A stretch of DNA of 64,000 nucleotides from Escherichia coli (GCF_965641715.1 NZ_OZ282453.1); one strand, 5' to 3'; shown: positions 165 to 5,528, counted from the stretch's first letter. Numbers and translations: made by a program. Notes: generated from the letters alone by a model not told the origin.

Positions 165-283
165 CGCGTATCCTCCTCTGAAGATATTCTTTAAGTTTAC
201 TCCTTTCCTGCAATCATCAGGATTAATTCAGAGTTATATACCAGGCTTAGCTGGGGTTGCCCCTTAATCTCTGGAGAATAACG

Positions 284-2029
284 ATGATAAAACCGACGTT
301 TTTACGCCGGGTGGCCATTGCTGCTCTGTTCACAGGAAGTTGTTTTAGTACGGTAGCCGCGCCACCTGCGCCGTCTCCTGTTTCTTACGGCGTGGAGGAA
401 GATGTCTTTCATCCGGTACGCGCGAAACAGGGGATGGTGGCATCTGTAGATGCTACTGCCACTCAGGTGGGGGTGGATATCCTCAAGGAGGGCGGGAATG
501 CCGTTGATGCCGCCGTGGCTGTGGGCTACGCGCTGGCGGTAACGCATCCGCAGGCAGGGAATCTGGGCGGTGGTGGTTTTATGCTGATCCGCTCGAAAAA
601 TGGCAATACCACCGCTATCGATTTCCGCGAAATGGCACCCGCCAAAGCGACCCGCGATATGTTCCTTGATGACCAGGGCAACCCGGACAGCAAAAAATCA
701 CTCACTTCGCATCTGGCTTCCGGCACGCCCGGTACGGTCGCTGGTTTCTCGCTGGCGTTGGATAAATACGGCACAATGCCGTTGAACAAAGTGGTGCAGC
801 CAGCGTTTAAACTGGCACGCGATGGTTTTATCGTTAACGACGCGCTGGCTGACGATCTCAAAACCTACGGGAGCGAAGTGCTGCCGAATCACGAAAACAG
901 CAAGGCTATCTTCTGGAAAGAGGGCGAGCCGCTGAAAAAGGGCGACAAGCTGGTGCAGGCGAACCTGGCAAAGAGCCTGGAGATGATTGCCGAAAACGGC
1001 CCGGACGAATTCTACAAAGGCACGATAGCGGAACAGATTGCCCAGGAGATGCAGAAAAACGGTGGCCTGATCACTAAAGAAGATTTAGCGGCGTATAAAG
1101 CGGTCGAACGCACACCGATAAGCGGCGATTATCGCGGGTATCAGGTTTACTCTATGCCACCGCCATCTTCCGGTGGGATTCATATCGTGCAGATCCTCAA
1201 TATTCTGGAAAACTTCGATATGAAGAAATACGGCTTTGGCAGTGCCGATGCGATGCAAATCATGGCAGAGGCTGAGAAATACGCCTACGCCGACCGCTCG
1301 GAATATCTTGGCGACCCGGATTTTGTCAAAGTCCCGTGGCAGGCGCTGACCAATAAAGCCTATGCCAAATCTATTGCCGAGCAAATCGATATCAATAAAG
1401 CGAAACCGTCCAGCGAGATTCGCCCTGGCAAGCTTGCGCCTTATGAGAGTAATCAAACTACCCATTACTCAGTGGTGGATAAAGACGGTAACGCCGTGGC
1501 GGTGACCTATACGCTGAACACCACCTTCGGTACGGGTATTGTCGCGGGCGAGAGCGGTATTCTGCTTAATAACCAGATGGATGATTTCTCCGCCAAACCG
1601 GGCGTACCGAACGTTTACGGGCTGGTAGGCGGTGATGCCAACGCGGTCGGGCCGAATAAACGCCCGCTGTCGTCGATGTCACCAACCATTGTGGTGAAAG
1701 ACGGTAAAACCTGGCTGGTTACCGGTAGCCCTGGCGGGAGCCGGATTATTACCACCGTGCTGCAAATGGTGGTGAATAGCATCGATTATGGCATGAACGT
1801 CGCCGAAGCGACCAATGCGCCGCGTTTCCACCATCAGTGGTTGCCGGACGAGCTGCGTGTCGAAAAAGGGTTTAGCCCGGATACGCTCAAACTGCTGGAA
1901 GCAAAAGGTCAGAAAGTGGCGCTGAAAGAGGCGATGGGCAGTACACAAAGCATTATGGTTGGGCCGGACGGTGAGTTGTACGGCGCATCCGACCCGCGCT
2001 CGGTGGATGATTTAACGGCGGGGTACTAA
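284..2029 (+). CDS. ggt: gamma-glutamyltranspeptidase (periplasmic, Ntn-hydrolase)
   Basis: ORF track 257..2029; N-terminus MIKPTFLRRVAIAAL... signal peptide from the ATG at 284; conserved autoprocessing region ...SNQTTHYSVVD...; full-length match to E. coli GGT as recalled. Confidence 0.95.
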   Translation: MIKPTFLRRVAIAALFTGSCFSTVAAPPAPSPVSYGVEEDVFHPVRAKQGMVASVDATATQVGVDILKEGGNAVDAAVAVGYALAVTHPQAGNLGGGGFMLIRSKNGNTTAIDFREMAPAKATRDMFLDDQGNPDSKKSLTSHLASGTPGTVAGFSLALDKYGTMPLNKVVQPAFKLARDGFIVNDALADDLKTYGSEVLPNHENSKAIFWKEGEPLKKGDKLVQANLAKSLEMIAENGPDEFYKGTIAEQIAQEMQKNGGLITKEDLAAYKAVERTPISGDYRGYQVYSMPPPSSGGIHIVQILNILENFDMKKYGFGSADAMQIMAEAEKYAYADRSEYLGDPDFVKVPWQALTNKAYAKSIAEQIDINKAKPSSEIRPGKLAPYESNQTTHYSVVDKDGNAVAVTYTLNTTFGTGIVAGESGILLNNQMDDFSAKPGVPNVYGLVGGDANAVGPNKRPLSSMSPTIVVKDGKTWLVTGSPGGSRIITTVLQMVVNSIDYGMNVAEATNAPRFHHQWLPDELRVEKGFSPDTLKLLEAKGQKVALKEAMGSTQSIMVGPDGELYGASDPRSVDDLTAGY

Positions 2030-2037
2030 GGTTAGCG

Positions 2038-2066
2038 GCCCTCTTCGTGGGAAGAGGGCTATTTTG
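2038..2066. terminator. Rho-independent terminator hairpin shared by convergent ggt and yrhB
   Basis: Stem GCCCTCTTC (2038..2046) / GAAGAGGGC (2051..2059), loop GTGG, followed by TATTTTG. Confidence 0.7.
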
Positions 2067-2351
2067 TCAGGGCAAGCCGAAGGTAGCCTTTTTTATTTCG
2101 TAATCCTGTAGATATTCTTCCAGCGGCTTTGCCGTTCCCAGAGAATGAATTTCACCACTGTCTTTATCAATAATAAAAGGTGCGTTACCAGCTAAGCGCG
2201 CGGCCTCATCTCCAGTTTCGAGAAATTCTCGTGCTTCGAAACAGAAATACCAGCCCTGGCTAAAGCGTCCATGTAGAGTAATGACGACCGGGAGATCTGC
2301 ATCATCAAGGTAATGGTTCGCTTTCGCGAATGCGTCGTGATAAGTAATCAT
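2067..2351 (-). CDS. yrhB: small 94-aa protein at the position of K-12 yrhB
   Basis: ORF track 2067..2351 (94 aa); size and position next to ggt match K-12 yrhB (recalled); the sequence itself was not independently recognised. Confidence 0.55.
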   Translation of the reverse strand: MITYHDAFAKANHYLDDADLPVVITLHGRFSQGWYFCFEAREFLETGDEAARLAGNAPFIIDKDSGEIHSLGTAKPLEEYLQDYEIKKATFGLP

Positions 2352-2800
2352 AATTATAATAAATATTATTGTTGAATGTTATATTATTATTCCTGTGTGA
2401 TACATTGAGCAAAGGTGCATTCATCTTCGTCAAAGATATTATTAAATGCTGGTTTTGAAAAAAGTTCATCGGATAAGATATAGTCACGAAATAAGTATCT
2501 GCTAATATTTTGTGATTTCTTTTTCAGAACGTCGAACGGGATTTTCTTATTTAAGATATCAGAATCTTATGATTTGGGTAAAATTCTAAATAAATCAACA
2601 TGTCACTAAAATCATCATAGCCATTAGCTATTTCGGCTAAAATAGAGACTACATGTCTTCGGTCCATCTCACTTAAGGAGTGTAGTTCCGTTGTAAGTTT
2701 TTCCATAGCTTGCATTGCTAAATTTCGAACAAGGAATTTTCTGGTGGTAATCTCTAAAAAGATGGCATGGTTTACAATGATTTTTGTTTCCTTTTGATTA

Positions 2801-3295
2801 TTATGAACAACTATCCATGATTTCGTTTAAGAATGAAGAGAAATCACTAAACGAACTGAATATATTTTCTGTGCCAATATTATCTCTAATTTCAAAAAAG
2901 TTACTTTTAATGTCATAAGTAAATATTGAAATGCTATCATCCCCGATCACTAACCGTTCTTGTAGATCAGGGTTTATGAAATCATCATTATTTCTATAAA
3001 ATTCATTTACGGCAAAAAGGTTTTTAACTGAAGGTTCTGGAATCGAGAGGCTAAATAATCGCAATCCATTAACTTCGAATCCATCCATTGCTCTTAAAAA
3101 AGTAAGATAATCAGGTTGATTCTTAAAAAGAATACTAACTTCATTACATAACTTCTCCAGGCAATTAGTTGAATTAGAATTAAATTCTATTTGGATTATA
3201 CTTTCAATAAATGATTCCTTGAGCGGTGCTTCAAATGGATAGTCTAAATCATTCATCATTTTTATTAATTTGTTTATTTGGGTTTTAGTCATCAT
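2801..3295 (-). CDS. putative immunity protein for the upstream HNH-like toxin domain (position of K-12 yrhA)
   Basis: 164-aa acidic ORF; its ATG overlaps the stop of the toxin-domain ORF (ATGA overlap at 3292..3295); AT-rich codon usage like the neighbouring Hcp gene. Confidence 0.5.
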   Translation of the reverse strand: MMTKTQINKLIKMMNDLDYPFEAPLKESFIESIIQIEFNSNSTNCLEKLCNEVSILFKNQPDYLTFLRAMDGFEVNGLRLFSLSIPEPSVKNLFAVNEFYRNNDDFINPDLQERLVIGDDSISIFTYDIKSNFFEIRDNIGTENIFSSFSDFSSFLNEIMDSCS

Positions 3296-3678
3296 TTTGT
3301 GGGTTCCATAATATTTTTCATGGGAGGATAAATTGAGCCAGATGGAATGGCCCAGGGAGTGATTTTGCTTTCACCTACTAATATTCCCTTAGCTATTCGT
3401 GATTGCATGTTAGTAAAAACTTTATGATATGGTTCGTTTTCGATTAATACTAAATTTTCGAAATCATTAGTACCACCATCATCTAGAGATAGTTTATGGT
3501 GAACATTATAATTTAGAGGAACATAGCCCTTTCTCATTCTTAAAAGGTCTTCGGTGTTGAATCTTCCAGATGCTTCGGAGGTTTTTGCAAGTTTGATAAG
3601 AAAATTTTTTCTTACAGTTTTGTTAAACTCCTTTCGTAAGTTAGCTAAGTCTTTTGAAGGTCTCTTAATGTATATTAT
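3292..3678 (-). other. C-terminal HNH-like nuclease toxin domain of an Hcp-toxin fusion (yhhZ-like), in frame with the Hcp ORF but separated from it by one TAA
   Basis: Frame arithmetic: 4470-3537=933 (multiple of 3); the 47 codons between the TAA (3679..3681) and the ATG at 3535..3537 contain no stop and translate cleanly (IIYIKRPSKDLANLRKEFNKTV...); HNH-type motif NVHHKLSLDDGGTNDFENLVLIENEPYHK. Confidence 0.55.
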
Positions 3679-4470
3679 TTATATTATGTCTATGCCATCA
3701 AGAAGTTTTTGTTGATCTCTAAGTTTGCCTAAGTAACTATTTATTTCTGTATATGTATCAACTTTAGAACGCTTTGTTAAAAGAATAGATGCTGTTGCTA
3801 TCGCTATGCCCGCTGTTTTTTCATTTAGTATTTGATCATAGCCTTTGATTGCATCTCCACCCAGTTTTTCCGCAGTATCTCTGAATCCTTCAATGTTCCC
3901 ATTGTATACGCCACCAGCAGCAAGTAGCCTGCCAACAGCTTTGCTGTTTAACGTTTTGAAACGATTATTTGTTTGGTTTTTTGAATTTGGTAAAAACAAA
4001 CGGTTATAATTTTCAGGGAGTGCCAAATAGCTGAACTCGGTATTTGCGATAAGATGTTGACAGAGGATAAATTCATAACTAACAGTTATTGTTTCTGTAT
4101 CCAGTTGATTTTGAATGATCTGATGATGAATAGCCGATAAAAAAGCGCCTCTTAGTTGTGTATAATAATACTTTTCCCATCTACCAAATCTATTGATTCT
4201 ATAAAAGTCAAATTTCATAAATAATTGCTCATTATTGTTAATGGAATTAATAAGTAATGGAGTGCTTTTATCAATTAATTTACAAAATGTCATAGCCTGT
4301 AACTGTGAACCAAGCCCCGTATTAGTAATTCTATTTTCGAGTGAGAATGTAAATATTTCATTCTCATGCCCGCTCTGCCAGCGATTACCTATAGATTCAG
4401 TAGTCCCACAACCTGCGGAGATGCTTCCTTGTTGTTCTCCCGTTACTGTCAGATAAACAATATTACTCAT
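3679..4470 (-). CDS. yhhZ: Hcp (type VI secretion tube protein) domain with C-terminal extension; N-terminal part of a yhhZ-like Hcp-toxin fusion ending at an in-frame TAA
   Basis: N-terminus MSNIVYLTVTGEQQGSISAGCGTTESIGNRWQSGHENEIFTFS is Hcp-like; 263 codons to TAA at 3679..3681; ORFs 3679..4470 and 3292..3537 share one frame; combined length ~392 codons equals K-12 YhhZ as recalled. Confidence 0.7.
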   Translation of the reverse strand: MSNIVYLTVTGEQQGSISAGCGTTESIGNRWQSGHENEIFTFSLENRITNTGLGSQLQAMTFCKLIDKSTPLLINSINNNEQLFMKFDFYRINRFGRWEKYYYTQLRGAFLSAIHHQIIQNQLDTETITVSYEFILCQHLIANTEFSYLALPENYNRLFLPNSKNQTNNRFKTLNSKAVGRLLAAGGVYNGNIEGFRDTAEKLGGDAIKGYDQILNEKTAGIAIATASILLTKRSKVDTYTEINSYLGKLRDQQKLLDGIDII

Positions 4471-4706
4471 CCCTGAAAAGTCCTTTTATGGCATGCTATT
4501 TTATCAATGGCACTATTATGCTTGTTAATTGTTATTTATTTACTCCAGGAAATTGTAGGCGTATATATTAAAAAATAAAATATTACACTTTAGGAAGTAA
4601 TTATGAGGTAAGTCTCAATATATTTATTGGGAAAATAAATACATTAAAGGAAGGTATGCCGATTTTGAATGACACCCTTTTTCCATCTCAGAAAAAGGGC
4701 ACTATT

Positions 4707-5195
4707 TTACTTCACCCGCGCCATAAAATACGCATCAACATATTCACCATTACGTAATGCGTACTTCTTGCCAGTCCCTTCAATCTCAAAGCCGAATTTT
4801 TTATAGACCTTAATTGCTGGCGCGTTATCGACAAACACCGTTAGCTCAATACGATCTACCCGCAACCAGTTGTCGCACATTTCAATCATCTCTCGCATCA
4901 GGGCGCTGGCGACGCCGCGATTCTTCCAGCGGGCGTCGACACAGATACCAAAATCGGCAACATGACTGCGGCGTGGGCGCTGTTGCACGTCAATGGTGAG
5001 ATGGCCCACGACGTCTCCATCAATACAGGCGACGAGTTGCTTGATGCCGGGACGATTGGCGAGTCGCTCCTGCCACATATAATCGGAAGGATGAGGCACT
5101 TGTAGCGTGTTGTAATACACCTCCGGCTGGGCGTGAATCTGCCTGATGGCCTCGTAATCGCGCGTTTCAGCATGGCGTATCACTATCTCACTCAT
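4707..5195 (-). CDS. yhhY: GNAT-family N-acetyltransferase
   Basis: ORF track 4707..5273; likely start at the ATG 5193..5195 (MSEIVIRHAETRDYEAIRQIH...) preceded by GAGGA; 162 aa. Confidence 0.85.
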   Translation of the reverse strand: MSEIVIRHAETRDYEAIRQIHAQPEVYYNTLQVPHPSDYMWQERLANRPGIKQLVACIDGDVVGHLTIDVQQRPRRSHVADFGICVDARWKNRGVASALMREMIEMCDNWLRVDRIELTVFVDNAPAIKVYKKFGFEIEGTGKKYALRNGEYVDAYFMARVK

Positions 5196-5528
5196 TCCTT
5201 TGTCCTCTTTGGGGTAAATGTCCCTTTCAACATCATTGACTTTCGAATGCGAGTCAAATGCATTTTTTTGCAAAAAGTGTTGGACAAGTGCGAATGAGAA
5301 TGATTATTATTGTCTCGCGATCAGGAAGACCCTCGCGGAGAACCTGAAAGCACGACATTGCTCACATTGCTTCCAGTATTACTTAGCCAGCCGGGTGCTG
5401 GCTTTTTTTTTGATCTTTCGTTCTCAATTTATCCTCGGGAAGTGCTTGTGTTCGTTATGCGCACTCCAGTAGGAACCACGTCCGCTTTGCGCTAAGGTGT
5501 AAATAACCACCTTAAAAAGGACGAAATC

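What the first reader, a model, noticed from the sequence alone, without database searches (positions are those of the whole stretch)
2352..2800. AT-rich spacer with a 51-codon ORF (2551..2706, minus strand): possible orphan immunity-gene remnant
Between the putative immunity gene and yrhB lies about 450 bp of strongly AT-rich sequence. It contains a minus-strand ORF, MEKLTTELHSLSEMDRRHVVSILAEIANGYDDFSDMLIYLEFYPNHKILIS, with no clear RBS. Polymorphic-toxin loci often carry arrays of orphan immunity fragments. This is also where K-12 carries IS1, as recalled.
Basis: seen in the sequence. Interest (0 to 1): 0.3.

Follow-up and report, generated by a model that had tools for sequence, protein, structure and literature searches.

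The report
yrhD: decayed orphan immunity gene
The 51-codon ORF is the annotated E. coli gene yrhD, and it is most likely not a working gene: it and the DNA after it are wrecks of two antitoxin ("immunity") genes left by older toxin cassettes at a bacterial-warfare locus.

Summary
Window 2352-2800 is 30% GC and carries the stated minus-strand ORF, with no Shine-Dalgarno sequence.

The ORF is the annotated gene yrhD (b4612). It lies in the islet yhhZ (Hcp-HNH toxin), yrhA, yrhD, yrhB (Imm35).

Its length alone is within chance. Homology is what identifies it. A profile of an uncurated family of about 84-aa proteins, built without E. coli sequences, matches the stop-free frame 2554-2826 at 56 bits (E 2.5e-16). 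The match runs across the yrhD ATG into a start-less upstream stretch.

Intact family members sit directly after one conserved toxin domain of about 124 aa. That domain is carried by CdiA proteins and by an intact Salmonella Hcp-toxin at the syntenic yhhX-ggt locus.

A second frame (2390-2566) matches residues 2-52 of an 86-aa Citrobacter gene, which lies between an Hcp-toxin and Imm35.

yrhD evolves neutrally (pN/pS about 1, against 0.1-0.3 for yrhA). It carries two independent nonsense alleles, in about 815-970 of 3808 genomes.

Verdict: the spacer is two decayed orphan immunity genes. Interest is modest.

The parts
2352..2800 (.). AT-rich 'spacer' between yrhB and yrhA (30.3% GC). It is almost entirely filled by two decayed minus-strand genes.
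2551..2706 (-). Annotated yrhD ORF (51 codons plus stop). Its ATG aligns with a mostly conserved internal Met/Leu (position 37) of the 84-aa family. No Shine-Dalgarno sequence.
2554..2826 (-). Stop-free frame of 91 codons that contains yrhD. The 37 codons upstream of ATG 2715 hold no ATG, GTG or TTG. The 5' end overlaps the last codons of yrhA in another frame.
2611..2802 (-). Remnant 1. This segment is homologous to positions 5-68 of the uncurated family of about 84-aa immunity-type proteins (motifs KII..AIFLE.. and AMEqLaaELq..Y).
   Evidence: 56 bits in all; the upstream part alone 20.4 bits; YrhD alone 25.2 bits
2554..2610 (-). Last 19 codons of yrhD (FSDMLIYLEFYPNHKILIS). They do not match the family's fourth helix (GDKxEFVxxLPESLGLI). 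Origin unexplained.
2390..2566 (-). Second stop-free frame of 59 codons (DSDILNKKIPFDVL...CITQE). It is offset by one base from the yrhD frame, overlaps yrhD's stop codon, and is closed by tandem TAA TAA at 2384-2389.
2396..2548 (-). Remnant 2, homologous to residues 2-52 of an 86-aa Citrobacter/Budvicia family. The ancestral start position (2549-2551) is now AAT. The 3' third of the gene and the downstream spacer (about 100 nt) are missing relative to Citrobacter.
   Evidence: 45% identity over 53 aa, E 5e-15; 37.8 bits, E 1.2e-10
2067..2351 (-). yrhB, an intact orphan immunity gene (Pfam Imm35, 4e-23). It is under purifying selection.
2801..3295 (-). yrhA (NCBIfam YrhA family, 1.5e-36). It is the presumed immunity gene of the YhhZ HNH toxin and is under purifying selection.
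3292..4470 (-). yhhZ/tssD, an Hcp-HNH polymorphic toxin. In this window a premature TAA at 3679-3681 (E264*) cuts it.
2859..2888 (-). Promoter-like site TAGAGA-18-TATATT inside the 3' part of yrhA. The same hexamer pair is listed upstream of yrhD in a genomic-SELEX table of RpoD holoenzyme sites, flagged H-NS.
   Evidence: PMC3946193

Best explanation
The interval is not a spacer with a small gene. It is the decayed remains of two orphan immunity genes in an Hcp-borne polymorphic-toxin locus.

**Layout.** The locus lies between yhhY and ggt and is a cassette-exchange site in Enterobacteriaceae. On the minus strand the window reads:
- yhhZ, an Hcp fused to an HNH toxin;
- yrhA, its presumed immunity gene;
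- remnant 1, which contains yrhD;
- remnant 2;
- yrhB, an intact Imm35 immunity gene.

**Remnant 1.** It descends from a four-helix immunity-type gene of about 84 codons. Intact relatives sit directly after one particular toxin C-terminal domain of about 124 aa, overlapping its stop codon by a few bases (4-17 nt). The annotated yrhD ATG is an internal methionine of that ancestor. The true start and the fourth helix are gone.

**Remnant 2.** It descends from an 86-codon gene that in Citrobacter follows a different Hcp-toxin and precedes Imm35. It has lost its start codon and its 3' third.

**What is shown and what is inferred.**
- Shown: the homology, the synteny, the positional pairing with a toxin domain, the loss of starts and ends, the neutral substitution pattern and the recurrent nonsense alleles.
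- Inferred: that the ancestors were immunity proteins that bound and neutralised their cognate toxins; that successive replacement of the toxin/immunity cassette left them behind; and that no functional product is made today.
For: **Identity and context**
- The ORF is yrhD, sitting between yrhA and yrhB in the islet yhhZ (Hcp plus HNH), yrhA (YrhA family), yrhB (Imm35).

**Remnant 1 homology**
- tblastn of the stop-free frame found 82-84-aa proteins in Rahnella and Pantoea. The Pantoea copy is at the tail of a CdiA orphan toxin/immunity array.
- A profile search gave 112 hits at E <= 0.001 (about 90 outside E. coli), in Enterobacterales and Rhodocyclales. The alignment is co-linear.
- An HMM of 31 non-E. 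coli members scores window frame 2554-2826 at 56.3 bits, E 2.5e-16. The next best of 1482 frames has E 1.9.
- The start-less upstream part alone scores 20.4 bits.

**Immunity position of the family**
- The same 124-aa toxin domain lies directly upstream in Photorhabdus CdiA, Quatrionicoccus TPS proteins (two copies), a Lelliottia orphan module, and an intact 373-aa Salmonella Hcp-toxin.
- Only the last 17-20 codons of that toxin remain upstream in other Salmonella strains and in Rahnella.

**Synteny**
- Salmonella and Citrobacter carry the intact 84-aa gene between yhhX/yhhY and ggt, with Imm35 downstream.

**Remnant 2 homology**
- 45% identity over 53 aa without gaps to the Citrobacter 86-aa protein, E 5e-15.
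- A family HMM without E. coli scores 37.8 bits, E 1.2e-10.
- The gene has the same neighbour (Imm35), and there is DNA-level co-linearity.

**Decay**
- No start codon is present upstream of ATG 2715.
- pN/pS is 0.7-2.5 for yrhD in the six comparisons involving phylogroup-divergent haplotypes (0.25, on 1 syn/1 nonsyn, against the near-identical K-12 copy), against 0.08-0.27 for yrhA and 0.08-0.57 for yrhB. Fisher tests give p = 0.003-0.02.
- The TTA>TAA change at codon 23 is in 458 genomes, including Nissle 1917 and ATCC 11775. The TAT>TAG haplotype at codon 39 is in 358-510 genomes. The region is present in 3808 genomes.
- RefSeq marks these copies as pseudogenes.
- K-12 has a nonsense codon in remnant 2.
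Against: - No experiment shows that the 84-aa or 86-aa families confer immunity. The assignment rests on gene position. Only one database name says so ('MafI family immunity protein', one Lelliottia record), and no NCBIfam or Pfam model supports it.
- About three quarters of the E. coli genomes that carry the region, K-12 and this window among them, keep the 51-codon ORF open.
- The 87-codon frame is open in eight of the nine haplotypes examined.
- An RNA-polymerase binding site is reported upstream (PMC3946193).
- I could not reach any ribosome-profiling or proteomic table that lists yrhD, so translation is untested rather than excluded.
- The substitution counts are small (7-13 changes per segment).
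Confidence: 0.85

Rival explanations
1. yrhD is a genuine small protein gene of 51 aa, as annotated, with its own function in E. coli. It might have been recruited from the old immunity gene.
For: - It is annotated in K-12 and RefSeq.
- The ORF is intact in roughly 75% of the genomes that carry the region.
- A promoter-like RNA-polymerase site lies upstream (PMC3946193).
Against: - There is no Shine-Dalgarno sequence.
- The ATG is an internal residue of the ancestral protein. The product would lack helix 1 and most of helix 2 of a four-helix bundle.
- pN/pS is about 1.
- Two independent nonsense alleles are fixed in large lineages, while yrhA and yrhB stay intact.
- An ORF of this length is expected by chance in this composition.
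- No homologue with this start exists outside E. coli.
Confidence: 0.08
2. The whole 87-codon frame is still translated, from a non-canonical start (ATA/ATT at 2812-2814) by coupling to yrhA. It would still give partial immunity against the Salmonella-type or Photorhabdus-type toxin.
For: - The upstream frame is open in eight of nine haplotypes.
- The yrhA stop lies 14 nt into the aligned frame. This is the same 14-nt overlap geometry as the toxin/immunity junctions in Lelliottia, Photorhabdus and Rahnella.
Against: - The same nonsense alleles interrupt this frame. One haplotype also has a 1-nt insertion between the upstream part and yrhD.
- pN/pS of the upstream part is 0.6-1.3.
- The helix 4 signature LPESLGLI and the conserved Asp31 are lost.
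- No cognate toxin or homologous DNA is found in 5426 E. coli genomes.
Confidence: 0.04
3. The ORF is a chance ORF in AT-rich, horizontally acquired, H-NS-bound intergenic DNA with no genic ancestry.
For: - ORFs of at least 54 codons arise in 29% of simulated sequences of this composition.
- No Pfam or NCBIfam match was found.
Against: - Profile matches to two independent families built without E. coli sequences have E 2.5e-16 and 1.2e-10.
- Both remnants lie on the operon strand.
- Their order (member, 86-aa gene, Imm35) matches the order of the intact genes in Citrobacter, although an 88-aa ORF and the Hcp-toxin lie between the first two there.
Confidence: 0.01
4. This was my own first hypothesis. 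yrhD would be the 5' half of a single gene of about 106 codons, split by a 1-nt frameshift at its stop codon and continuing in frame 2390-2566.
For: - The two frames abut and overlap at the yrhD stop.
- One E. coli variant protein joins them (P0007).
Against: - The two frames match two different protein families.
- The second family's N-terminus (MKKIP...) aligns at the junction.
- An exhaustive search with the fused sequence found only E. coli fragments and two spurious repeat proteins.
Confidence: 0.01

Closest known systems
E. coli K-12 yrhD (b4612, UniProt P58037, 'uncharacterized protein YrhD')
   Same: It is the same gene at the same position between yrhA and yrhB. 50 of 51 residues are identical (S34 here, N34 in K-12).
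   Different: Nothing differs structurally. What is new is the reading. The annotated ORF is the 3' part of a decayed gene of about 84 codons. None of the papers in the library that mention E. coli yrhD says anything about its origin or function.
Orphan cdiA-CT/cdiI and rhs-CT/rhsI modules (Poole et al. 2011, PMC3150448)
   Same: - The remnants lie downstream of the active toxin/immunity pair.
- Their homologues are paired with a full toxin in other species.
- Orphan copies elsewhere (Salmonella, Rahnella; fainter, frameshifted traces by eye in Pantoea and Citrobacter) keep only the last codons of the toxin gene.
- The modules are shared between delivery systems.
   Different: - The carrier at this locus is an Hcp (T6SS) fusion, not CdiA or Rhs.
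- The E. coli copies are decayed pseudogenes without any toxin fragment. The orphan modules described by Poole et al. were functional.
Hcp-ET effectors with downstream immunity genes (Ma et al. 2017, as summarised in PMC6730261); YhhZ as an Hcp-HNH toxin (PMC5714182)
   Same: [quoted passage not shown] Salmonella and Citrobacter carry other Hcp-toxin variants at the same locus.
   Different: The toxin domains paired with the two ancestral genes match no Pfam family (the ~124-aa domain was also checked against NCBIfam and PDB sequences, without a match).
YrhB / Imm35 (PF15567)
   Same: It is the neighbouring orphan immunity gene in the same array. In Salmonella it is preceded by a 69-aa Gln_amidase toxin fragment.
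   Different: yrhB is intact and under purifying selection, with pN/pS 0.08-0.57. The two remnants are not.
'MafI family immunity protein' (a label on one Lelliottia member, WP_420171538.1)
   Same: It is a small immunity-type protein in a polymorphic-toxin island.
   Different: None of the 32 sequences scanned matches any NCBIfam or Pfam immunity model at E <= 1. All other records say 'hypothetical protein'. The label is not a tested membership.

Membership tests
YrhD (RefSeq 'protein YrhD', b4612) | Near-identity to K-12 YrhD and a position between yrhA and yrhB | tested here: met
   50 of 51 residues identical. The same gene order is found in 3757 genomes that cover at least 80% of the 2.6-kb query.
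Uncurated family of about 84-aa immunity-type proteins (alignment A2) | Significant match to a family profile that does not contain the candidate | tested here: met
   56.3 bits, E 2.5e-16, HMM positions 5-68 of 84.
Uncurated family of about 84-aa immunity-type proteins (alignment A2) | Full-length gene with its own start codon (TTG or ATG) that overlaps the stop of the upstream gene | tested here: not met
   There is no ATG, GTG or TTG upstream of 2715. The aligned start position is ATA.
Uncurated family of about 84-aa immunity-type proteins (alignment A2) | Conserved C-terminal helix 4 signature (GDKxEFVxxLPESLGLI) | tested here: not met
   The E. coli residues after NGYDD do not align.
Uncurated family of about 84-aa immunity-type proteins (alignment A2) | The cognate 124-aa toxin domain, or its 3' end, lies immediately upstream | tested here: not met
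   tblastn of the toxin domain against the window gives only noise (E >= 2.2). The native 3' end of yrhA occupies that position.
Orphan immunity gene of a polymorphic-toxin locus | It lies downstream of an active toxin/immunity pair in such a locus | tested here: met
   yhhZ (T6SS_HCP plus HNH), then yrhA, upstream; Imm35 downstream.
Orphan immunity gene of a polymorphic-toxin locus | Homologues elsewhere are paired with a full-length toxin that carries the cognate C-terminal domain | tested here: met
   Salmonella Hcp-toxin L018 5896-7017, Photorhabdus CdiA L013, Quatrionicoccus TPS protein L015.
Orphan immunity gene of a polymorphic-toxin locus | The protein neutralises its cognate toxin | not testable with these tools
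   This needs co-expression or competition assays. Only positional evidence is available here.
86-aa Citrobacter/Budvicia family (remnant 2) | Significant match to a family profile built without the candidate | tested here: met
   37.8 bits, E 1.2e-10, HMM positions 2-52. Pairwise E 5e-15.
86-aa Citrobacter/Budvicia family (remnant 2) | Full-length ORF with a start codon | tested here: not met
   The start position reads AAT. The 3' 34 codons are absent. K-12 has an internal stop.
Functional small protein gene | Ribosome-binding site, purifying selection and ORF conservation across the species | tested here: not met
   No Shine-Dalgarno sequence. pN/pS about 1. Nonsense alleles in about 815-970 of 3808 genomes.
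Functional small protein gene | Direct evidence of translation | not tested
   No accessible supplement lists yrhD.
MafI family immunity protein (NCBI name) | Match to a curated MafI or immunity model | tested here: not met
   No NCBIfam or Pfam immunity model is hit by any of the 32 sequences scanned.

The most novel reading that the evidence does not exclude
The family of about 84-aa proteins and the toxin domain of about 124 aa encoded just before it (...FDGVDxxVMIDRK...MFDELGIKNIEVKVVKE) would form a previously uncurated toxin/immunity pair. The pair is exchanged between T5SS CdiA/TPS carriers (Photorhabdus, Quatrionicoccus, Lelliottia) and a T6SS Hcp carrier (Salmonella). On this reading E. 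coli yrhD is a fossil showing that this cassette once occupied the yhhZ locus. The toxin may be a restriction-endonuclease-fold nuclease, but that rests only on weak fold hits and a D...D-R-K motif.
Probability: 0.65. Interest if true: 0.4.

Novelty: new member of a known kind. Interest (0 to 1): 0.3.

Why it matters
- It gives an evolutionary identity to a K-12 gene (b4612) that has been carried as 'uncharacterized protein' for two decades. The gene should probably be re-annotated as a pseudogene fragment, and a second unannotated remnant sits beside it.
- It shows that the yhhY-ggt locus is a cassette-exchange site for Hcp-borne toxins across Escherichia, Salmonella and Citrobacter. At least three generations of immunity genes are stacked behind the current one.
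- It points to an uncurated toxin/immunity pair that moves between type V and type VI delivery scaffolds.
- None of this changes how polymorphic-toxin loci are understood. It is a clean example of a known process.

Tried and rejected
1. **Frameshift hypothesis.** I first read yrhD plus frame 2390-2566 as one gene of 106 codons. I handed the fused sequence to the exhaustive 1.84-billion-protein search. It returned only E. coli fragments and two repeat proteins (P0025, P0026) whose scores come from summed repeats. The idea was later rejected because the two frames belong to different families.
2. **Direct searches with YrhD alone.** These gave only E. coli hits and no Pfam hit. The breakthrough came from tblastn with the whole stop-free frame, including the start-less upstream part.
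3. **A second, tandem partial copy of the family in yrhD's C-terminus.** LIYLEF resembles AIFLEF, but the score is only 2-5 bits, which is not significant.
4. **yrhD's last 19 codons as the 3' end of the Citrobacter-type toxin gene.** One 16-nt local DNA match has shuffle P = 0.04 and there is no protein-level signal. This is inconclusive.
5. **Shared 14-nt overlap geometry of the yrhA stop and the aligned start.** I noted it, but the DNA is not alignable, so I treat it as a possible coincidence.
6. **RNA families.** Nothing relevant was found in 1900-5400 apart from RyhB outside the finding. Counts of promoter-like and terminator-like sites are at shuffle expectation.
7. **Fold search of the 84-aa model** (four helices, pLDDT 82). 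No PDB match with E <= 0.001.
8. **Fold search of the toxin-domain model.** Only one of five models was confident. It gave only weak hits (best E 0.05) to PD-(D/E)xK nucleases and one T6SS effector complex.
9. **Translation evidence.** Four ribosome-profiling or small-protein papers were checked. Their supplements either are not held or do not list yrhD.
10. **The 'MafI' label.** Curated models do not support it.
11. **An intact copy in E. coli.** A blastn 'distant' search with the Salmonella toxin-plus-immunity DNA against 5426 genomes gave no match.

Full report
**1. Observation**

The window's first 5.3 kb is the E. coli ggt region. It holds these features:
- ggt (257-2029, plus strand);
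- yrhB (2067-2351, minus);
- a 54/51-codon ORF (2551-2715/2706, minus);
- a 164-aa ORF (2801-3295, minus);
- an Hcp-type gene (3292-4470, minus);
- yhhY (4707-5273, minus).

The interval 2352-2800 is 30.3% GC, and the whole stretch 2352-4706 is 28-34% GC, against 50-54% for ggt and yhhY. No Shine-Dalgarno-like triplet lies within 24 nt of either ATG.

ORF length by itself proves nothing. In 5000 Markov-1 simulations of this composition, 29% held an ORF of at least 54 codons. Only 4% held a stop-free run as long as the 91 codons seen at 2554-2826.

**2. Identity**

Megablast against 5426 complete E. coli genomes found the 2.6-kb neighbourhood in 4505 genomes. The features annotated there are ggt, yrhB, yrhD, yrhA and tssD. 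In the nearest relative and in K-12 MG1655 the ORF is yrhD (b4612, 'uncharacterized protein YrhD').

K-12's IS1E lies inside yrhA, 105 nt before that gene's stop. It is not in the spacer.

Family scans of the neighbours gave:
- Pfam Imm35 for YrhB (4e-23);
- T6SS_HCP for the N-terminal part of YhhZ, and a weak HNH match for its C-terminal ORF;
- the NCBIfam YrhA family for the 164-aa ORF.

YhhZ is described in the literature as an Hcp-HNH polymorphic toxin (PMC5714182). Hcp proteins with C-terminal toxin extensions and downstream immunity genes have been characterised in E. coli (review PMC6730261).

**3. A false start**

YrhD alone found only E. coli proteins and no Pfam family. I noticed that a frame offset by one base stays open for 59 codons after the yrhD stop. 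I guessed that a gene of 106 codons had been split by a frameshift.

The one exhaustive search went to that fusion. It returned only E. coli fragments plus two repeat proteins with additive scores. The guess was wrong in form. It did draw attention to the fact that the yrhD frame is also open for 37 codons upstream of its ATG, with no possible start codon.

**4. Population genetics**

The spacer is present in 3808 of 5426 genomes at 92-100% identity. I compared nine haplotypes: the window, K-12 and seven others.

- yrhA and yrhB are intact in all nine (apart from the IS1 insertion in K-12's yrhA).
- yrhD carries TAT>TAG at codon 39 in three haplotypes.
- yrhD carries TTA>TAA at codon 23 in three other haplotypes.
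- One haplotype has a 1-nt insertion just upstream of the ATG.
- RefSeq marks these copies as pseudogenes.

Allele-specific 47-mers found the codon-23 stop in 458 genomes, including Nissle 1917 and the type strain ATCC 11775. They found the codon-39 haplotype in 358-510 genomes.

| Segment | Nei-Gojobori pN/pS |
|---|---|
| yrhD | 0.25-2.5 (0.74-2.5 in the six comparisons with divergent haplotypes) |
| start-less upstream part | 0.6-1.3 |
| downstream frame | 0.3-0.9 |
| yrhA | 0.08-0.27 |
| yrhB | 0.08-0.57 |

Pooled synonymous and nonsynonymous counts differ between the remnants and the intact genes, with Fisher p = 0.003-0.02. Nucleotide divergence of the spacer segments reaches 7-12% in the most distant comparisons, against at most 4% for yrhA.

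**5. Remnant 1**

*Finding the family.* tblastn of the whole stop-free frame against plasmid records hit two hypothetical proteins of 82-84 aa. One is in Rahnella (E 3e-3). The other is in Pantoea, at the tail of a CdiA array of orphan VENN-toxin and immunity modules.

The three sequences align end to end, with the similarity running across the yrhD ATG. A profile search found 112 hits at E <= 0.001, about 90 of them non-E. coli proteins of mostly 81-93 aa. They come from Rahnella, Serratia, Pantoea, Lelliottia, Citrobacter, Cedecea, Photorhabdus, Salmonella, Pectobacterium, Kosakonia and Rhodocyclales. The motifs are AIFLEF(T/S), AvEaMEQlAaELQ and LPESLGLI.

*Testing without circularity.* I built an HMM from 31 members with no E. 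coli sequence and searched all 1482 stop-free frames of the window.
- Frame 2554-2826 (minus) scored 56.3 bits, E 2.5e-16. The next best frame had E 1.9.
- The start-less upstream part alone scores 20.4 bits, and YrhD alone 25.2 bits.
- The match covers model positions 5-68 of 84, which is window 2611-2802.
- The last 19 codons of yrhD do not match.

The yrhD ATG therefore corresponds to an internal Met/Leu of the family.

*What is known about the family.* It has no Pfam, NCBIfam or PDB sequence match. AlphaFold2 predicts a four-helix bundle (pLDDT 82) with no significant PDB neighbour.

**6. What the family does, by position**

In every context that could be read, the 84-aa gene lies directly after one conserved toxin domain of about 124 aa (...KVKWVDENA...FDGVDxxVMIDRK...MFDELGIKNIEVKVVKE) or after that domain's last codons.

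| Context | What lies upstream of the 84-aa gene |
|---|---|
| Photorhabdus CdiA (>2900 aa) | full domain, 14-nt overlap |
| Quatrionicoccus TPS protein, plus a downstream orphan copy | full domain, 4-nt overlaps |
| Lelliottia orphan module behind a CdiA-TNT/Imm63 pair | 100 of 124 residues |
| Other Salmonella strains and Rahnella | last 17-20 codons only |

This is the architecture of cdiA-CT/cdiI and orphan modules described by Poole et al. 2011 (PMC3150448).

The toxin domain has no Pfam, NCBIfam or PDB sequence match. One of five AlphaFold models was confident. Its best fold hits were weak (E 0.05-0.3). They were PD-(D/E)xK nucleases and a T6SS effector/immunity complex. I treat the nuclease idea as a hint only.

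**7. Synteny**

Salmonella enterica and Citrobacter braakii carry the intact 84-aa gene at the same chromosomal site. It sits between yhhX/yhhY and ggt, with an Imm35 gene downstream.

In Salmonella CP034702.1 an intact 373-aa ORF fuses an Hcp domain to this very toxin domain. The Hcp domain is 73.5% identical to YhhZ residues 1-234. The toxin domain is 85% identical to the Photorhabdus CdiA-CT. The 84-aa gene follows, overlapping the ORF's stop.

So the ancestor of yrhD was the partner of an Hcp-toxin cassette at this locus. No E. coli complete genome carries recognisable DNA of that cassette.

**8. Remnant 2**

In Citrobacter, an 86-aa gene lies between a different Hcp-toxin (417 aa) and Imm35. 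Its sequence begins MKKIPLDVLEQKAKKISRDTLGDYILPDDIFSQ....

The E. coli 'downstream frame' reads NKKIPFDVLKKKSQNISRYLFRDYILSDELFSK....
- It is 45% identical over 53 residues without gaps, E 5e-15.
- It scores 37.8 bits (E 1.2e-10) against an HMM of 14 Citrobacter and Budvicia members.

The aligned start codon is AAT in E. coli. About 100 nt are missing relative to Citrobacter. The missing piece includes the 3' third of the gene and the AGGAGG that precedes Citrobacter's Imm35. K-12 has an internal stop in this frame.

**9. Synthesis**

Reading the minus strand, the locus is:
- Hcp-HNH (yhhZ);
- YrhA;
- the fossil of the 84-aa immunity-type gene;
- the fossil of the 86-aa gene;
- Imm35 (yrhB).

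The 449-bp 'spacer' is thus filled by two dead genes, separated from their neighbours by ordinary short gaps.

The most economical history, which is an inference, is repeated replacement of the 3' toxin-plus-immunity cassette of the Hcp gene. Older immunity genes would have been pushed downstream. YrhB was retained under selection and the other two decayed.

The annotated yrhD ORF is what happens to remain open from an internal methionine. I put 0.85 on this reading. About 0.08 goes to yrhD being a real small protein, and less to the other rivals.

**10. Limits**

- Immunity function is inferred from position only.
- Translation of yrhD is untested. No accessible ribosome-profiling table lists it.
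- An RNA-polymerase and H-NS site upstream of yrhD has been reported by genomic SELEX (PMC3946193). It matches the promoter-like site at 2859-2888.
- Substitution counts are small.
- The origin of yrhD's last 19 codons is unexplained.

Noticed in passing
window 3679-3681 (within yhhZ, 3292-4470, minus strand): The window's own Hcp-HNH toxin gene has a premature TAA (E264*). It separates the Hcp domain and linker (263 aa) from the HNH domain. The 99.7%-identical relative PapRG-04-4 is intact, and APEC O18 has an independent Y267*. The toxin seems to be decaying in some lineages while its immunity gene yrhA stays intact.
   Followed up: partly
L018 5896-7017 and 7001-7255 (Salmonella enterica CP034702.1); L013 7640-8255 (Photorhabdus): One toxin domain of about 124 aa, 85% identical between the two, is carried by a T6SS Hcp fusion in Salmonella and by a T5SS CdiA in Photorhabdus. 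Each is followed by the same 84-aa gene. Neither the domain nor the 84-aa family has a Pfam, NCBIfam or PDB sequence match.
   Followed up: partly
window 2352-2389 compared with L020 9341-9478: E. coli lacks about 100 nt that Citrobacter has between the 86-aa gene and Imm35. The missing piece includes the AGGAGG Shine-Dalgarno sequence of Imm35. E. coli yrhB therefore starts without a recognisable ribosome-binding site, yet it is under purifying selection.
   Followed up: no
L019 7366-7575 (Salmonella): A 69-aa Gln_amidase (papain-fold toxin) fragment abuts the Imm35 gene. This suggests that YrhB/Imm35 is itself the orphan immunity of a third, glutamine-deamidase-type cassette.
   Followed up: no
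window 2801-2814: The yrhA stop codon lies exactly 14 nt into the aligned start of the remnant's frame. The toxin/immunity junctions of Lelliottia, Photorhabdus and Rahnella have the same 14-nt overlap, but the DNA there is not alignable with E. coli. This may be coincidence or a trace of the recombination joint.
   Followed up: partly
window 5346-5400: The 5' part of the RyhB sRNA gene lies just beyond yhhY (Rfam RF00057, 62.8 bits, cut off by the searched stretch), as in K-12.
   Followed up: no
L020 7317-7583 and 9779-10030 (Citrobacter); L018 8012-8248 and L019 9371-9640 (Salmonella): A further family of 78-89-aa proteins (...ELNILKLLA...NWTWYNLDR...) recurs in these loci, sometimes twice per locus. 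Its Pfam hits (EarA-like, Imm27) are weak and below threshold. It may be another immunity or regulator family of the islet, and it is absent from E. coli.
   Followed up: no
E. coli genomes without the spacer: About 1600 of the 5426 complete genomes have no match to window 2352-2800, and about 920 have no match to the 2.6-kb neighbourhood. I did not examine what occupies the ggt-yhhY interval in those genomes.
   Followed up: no
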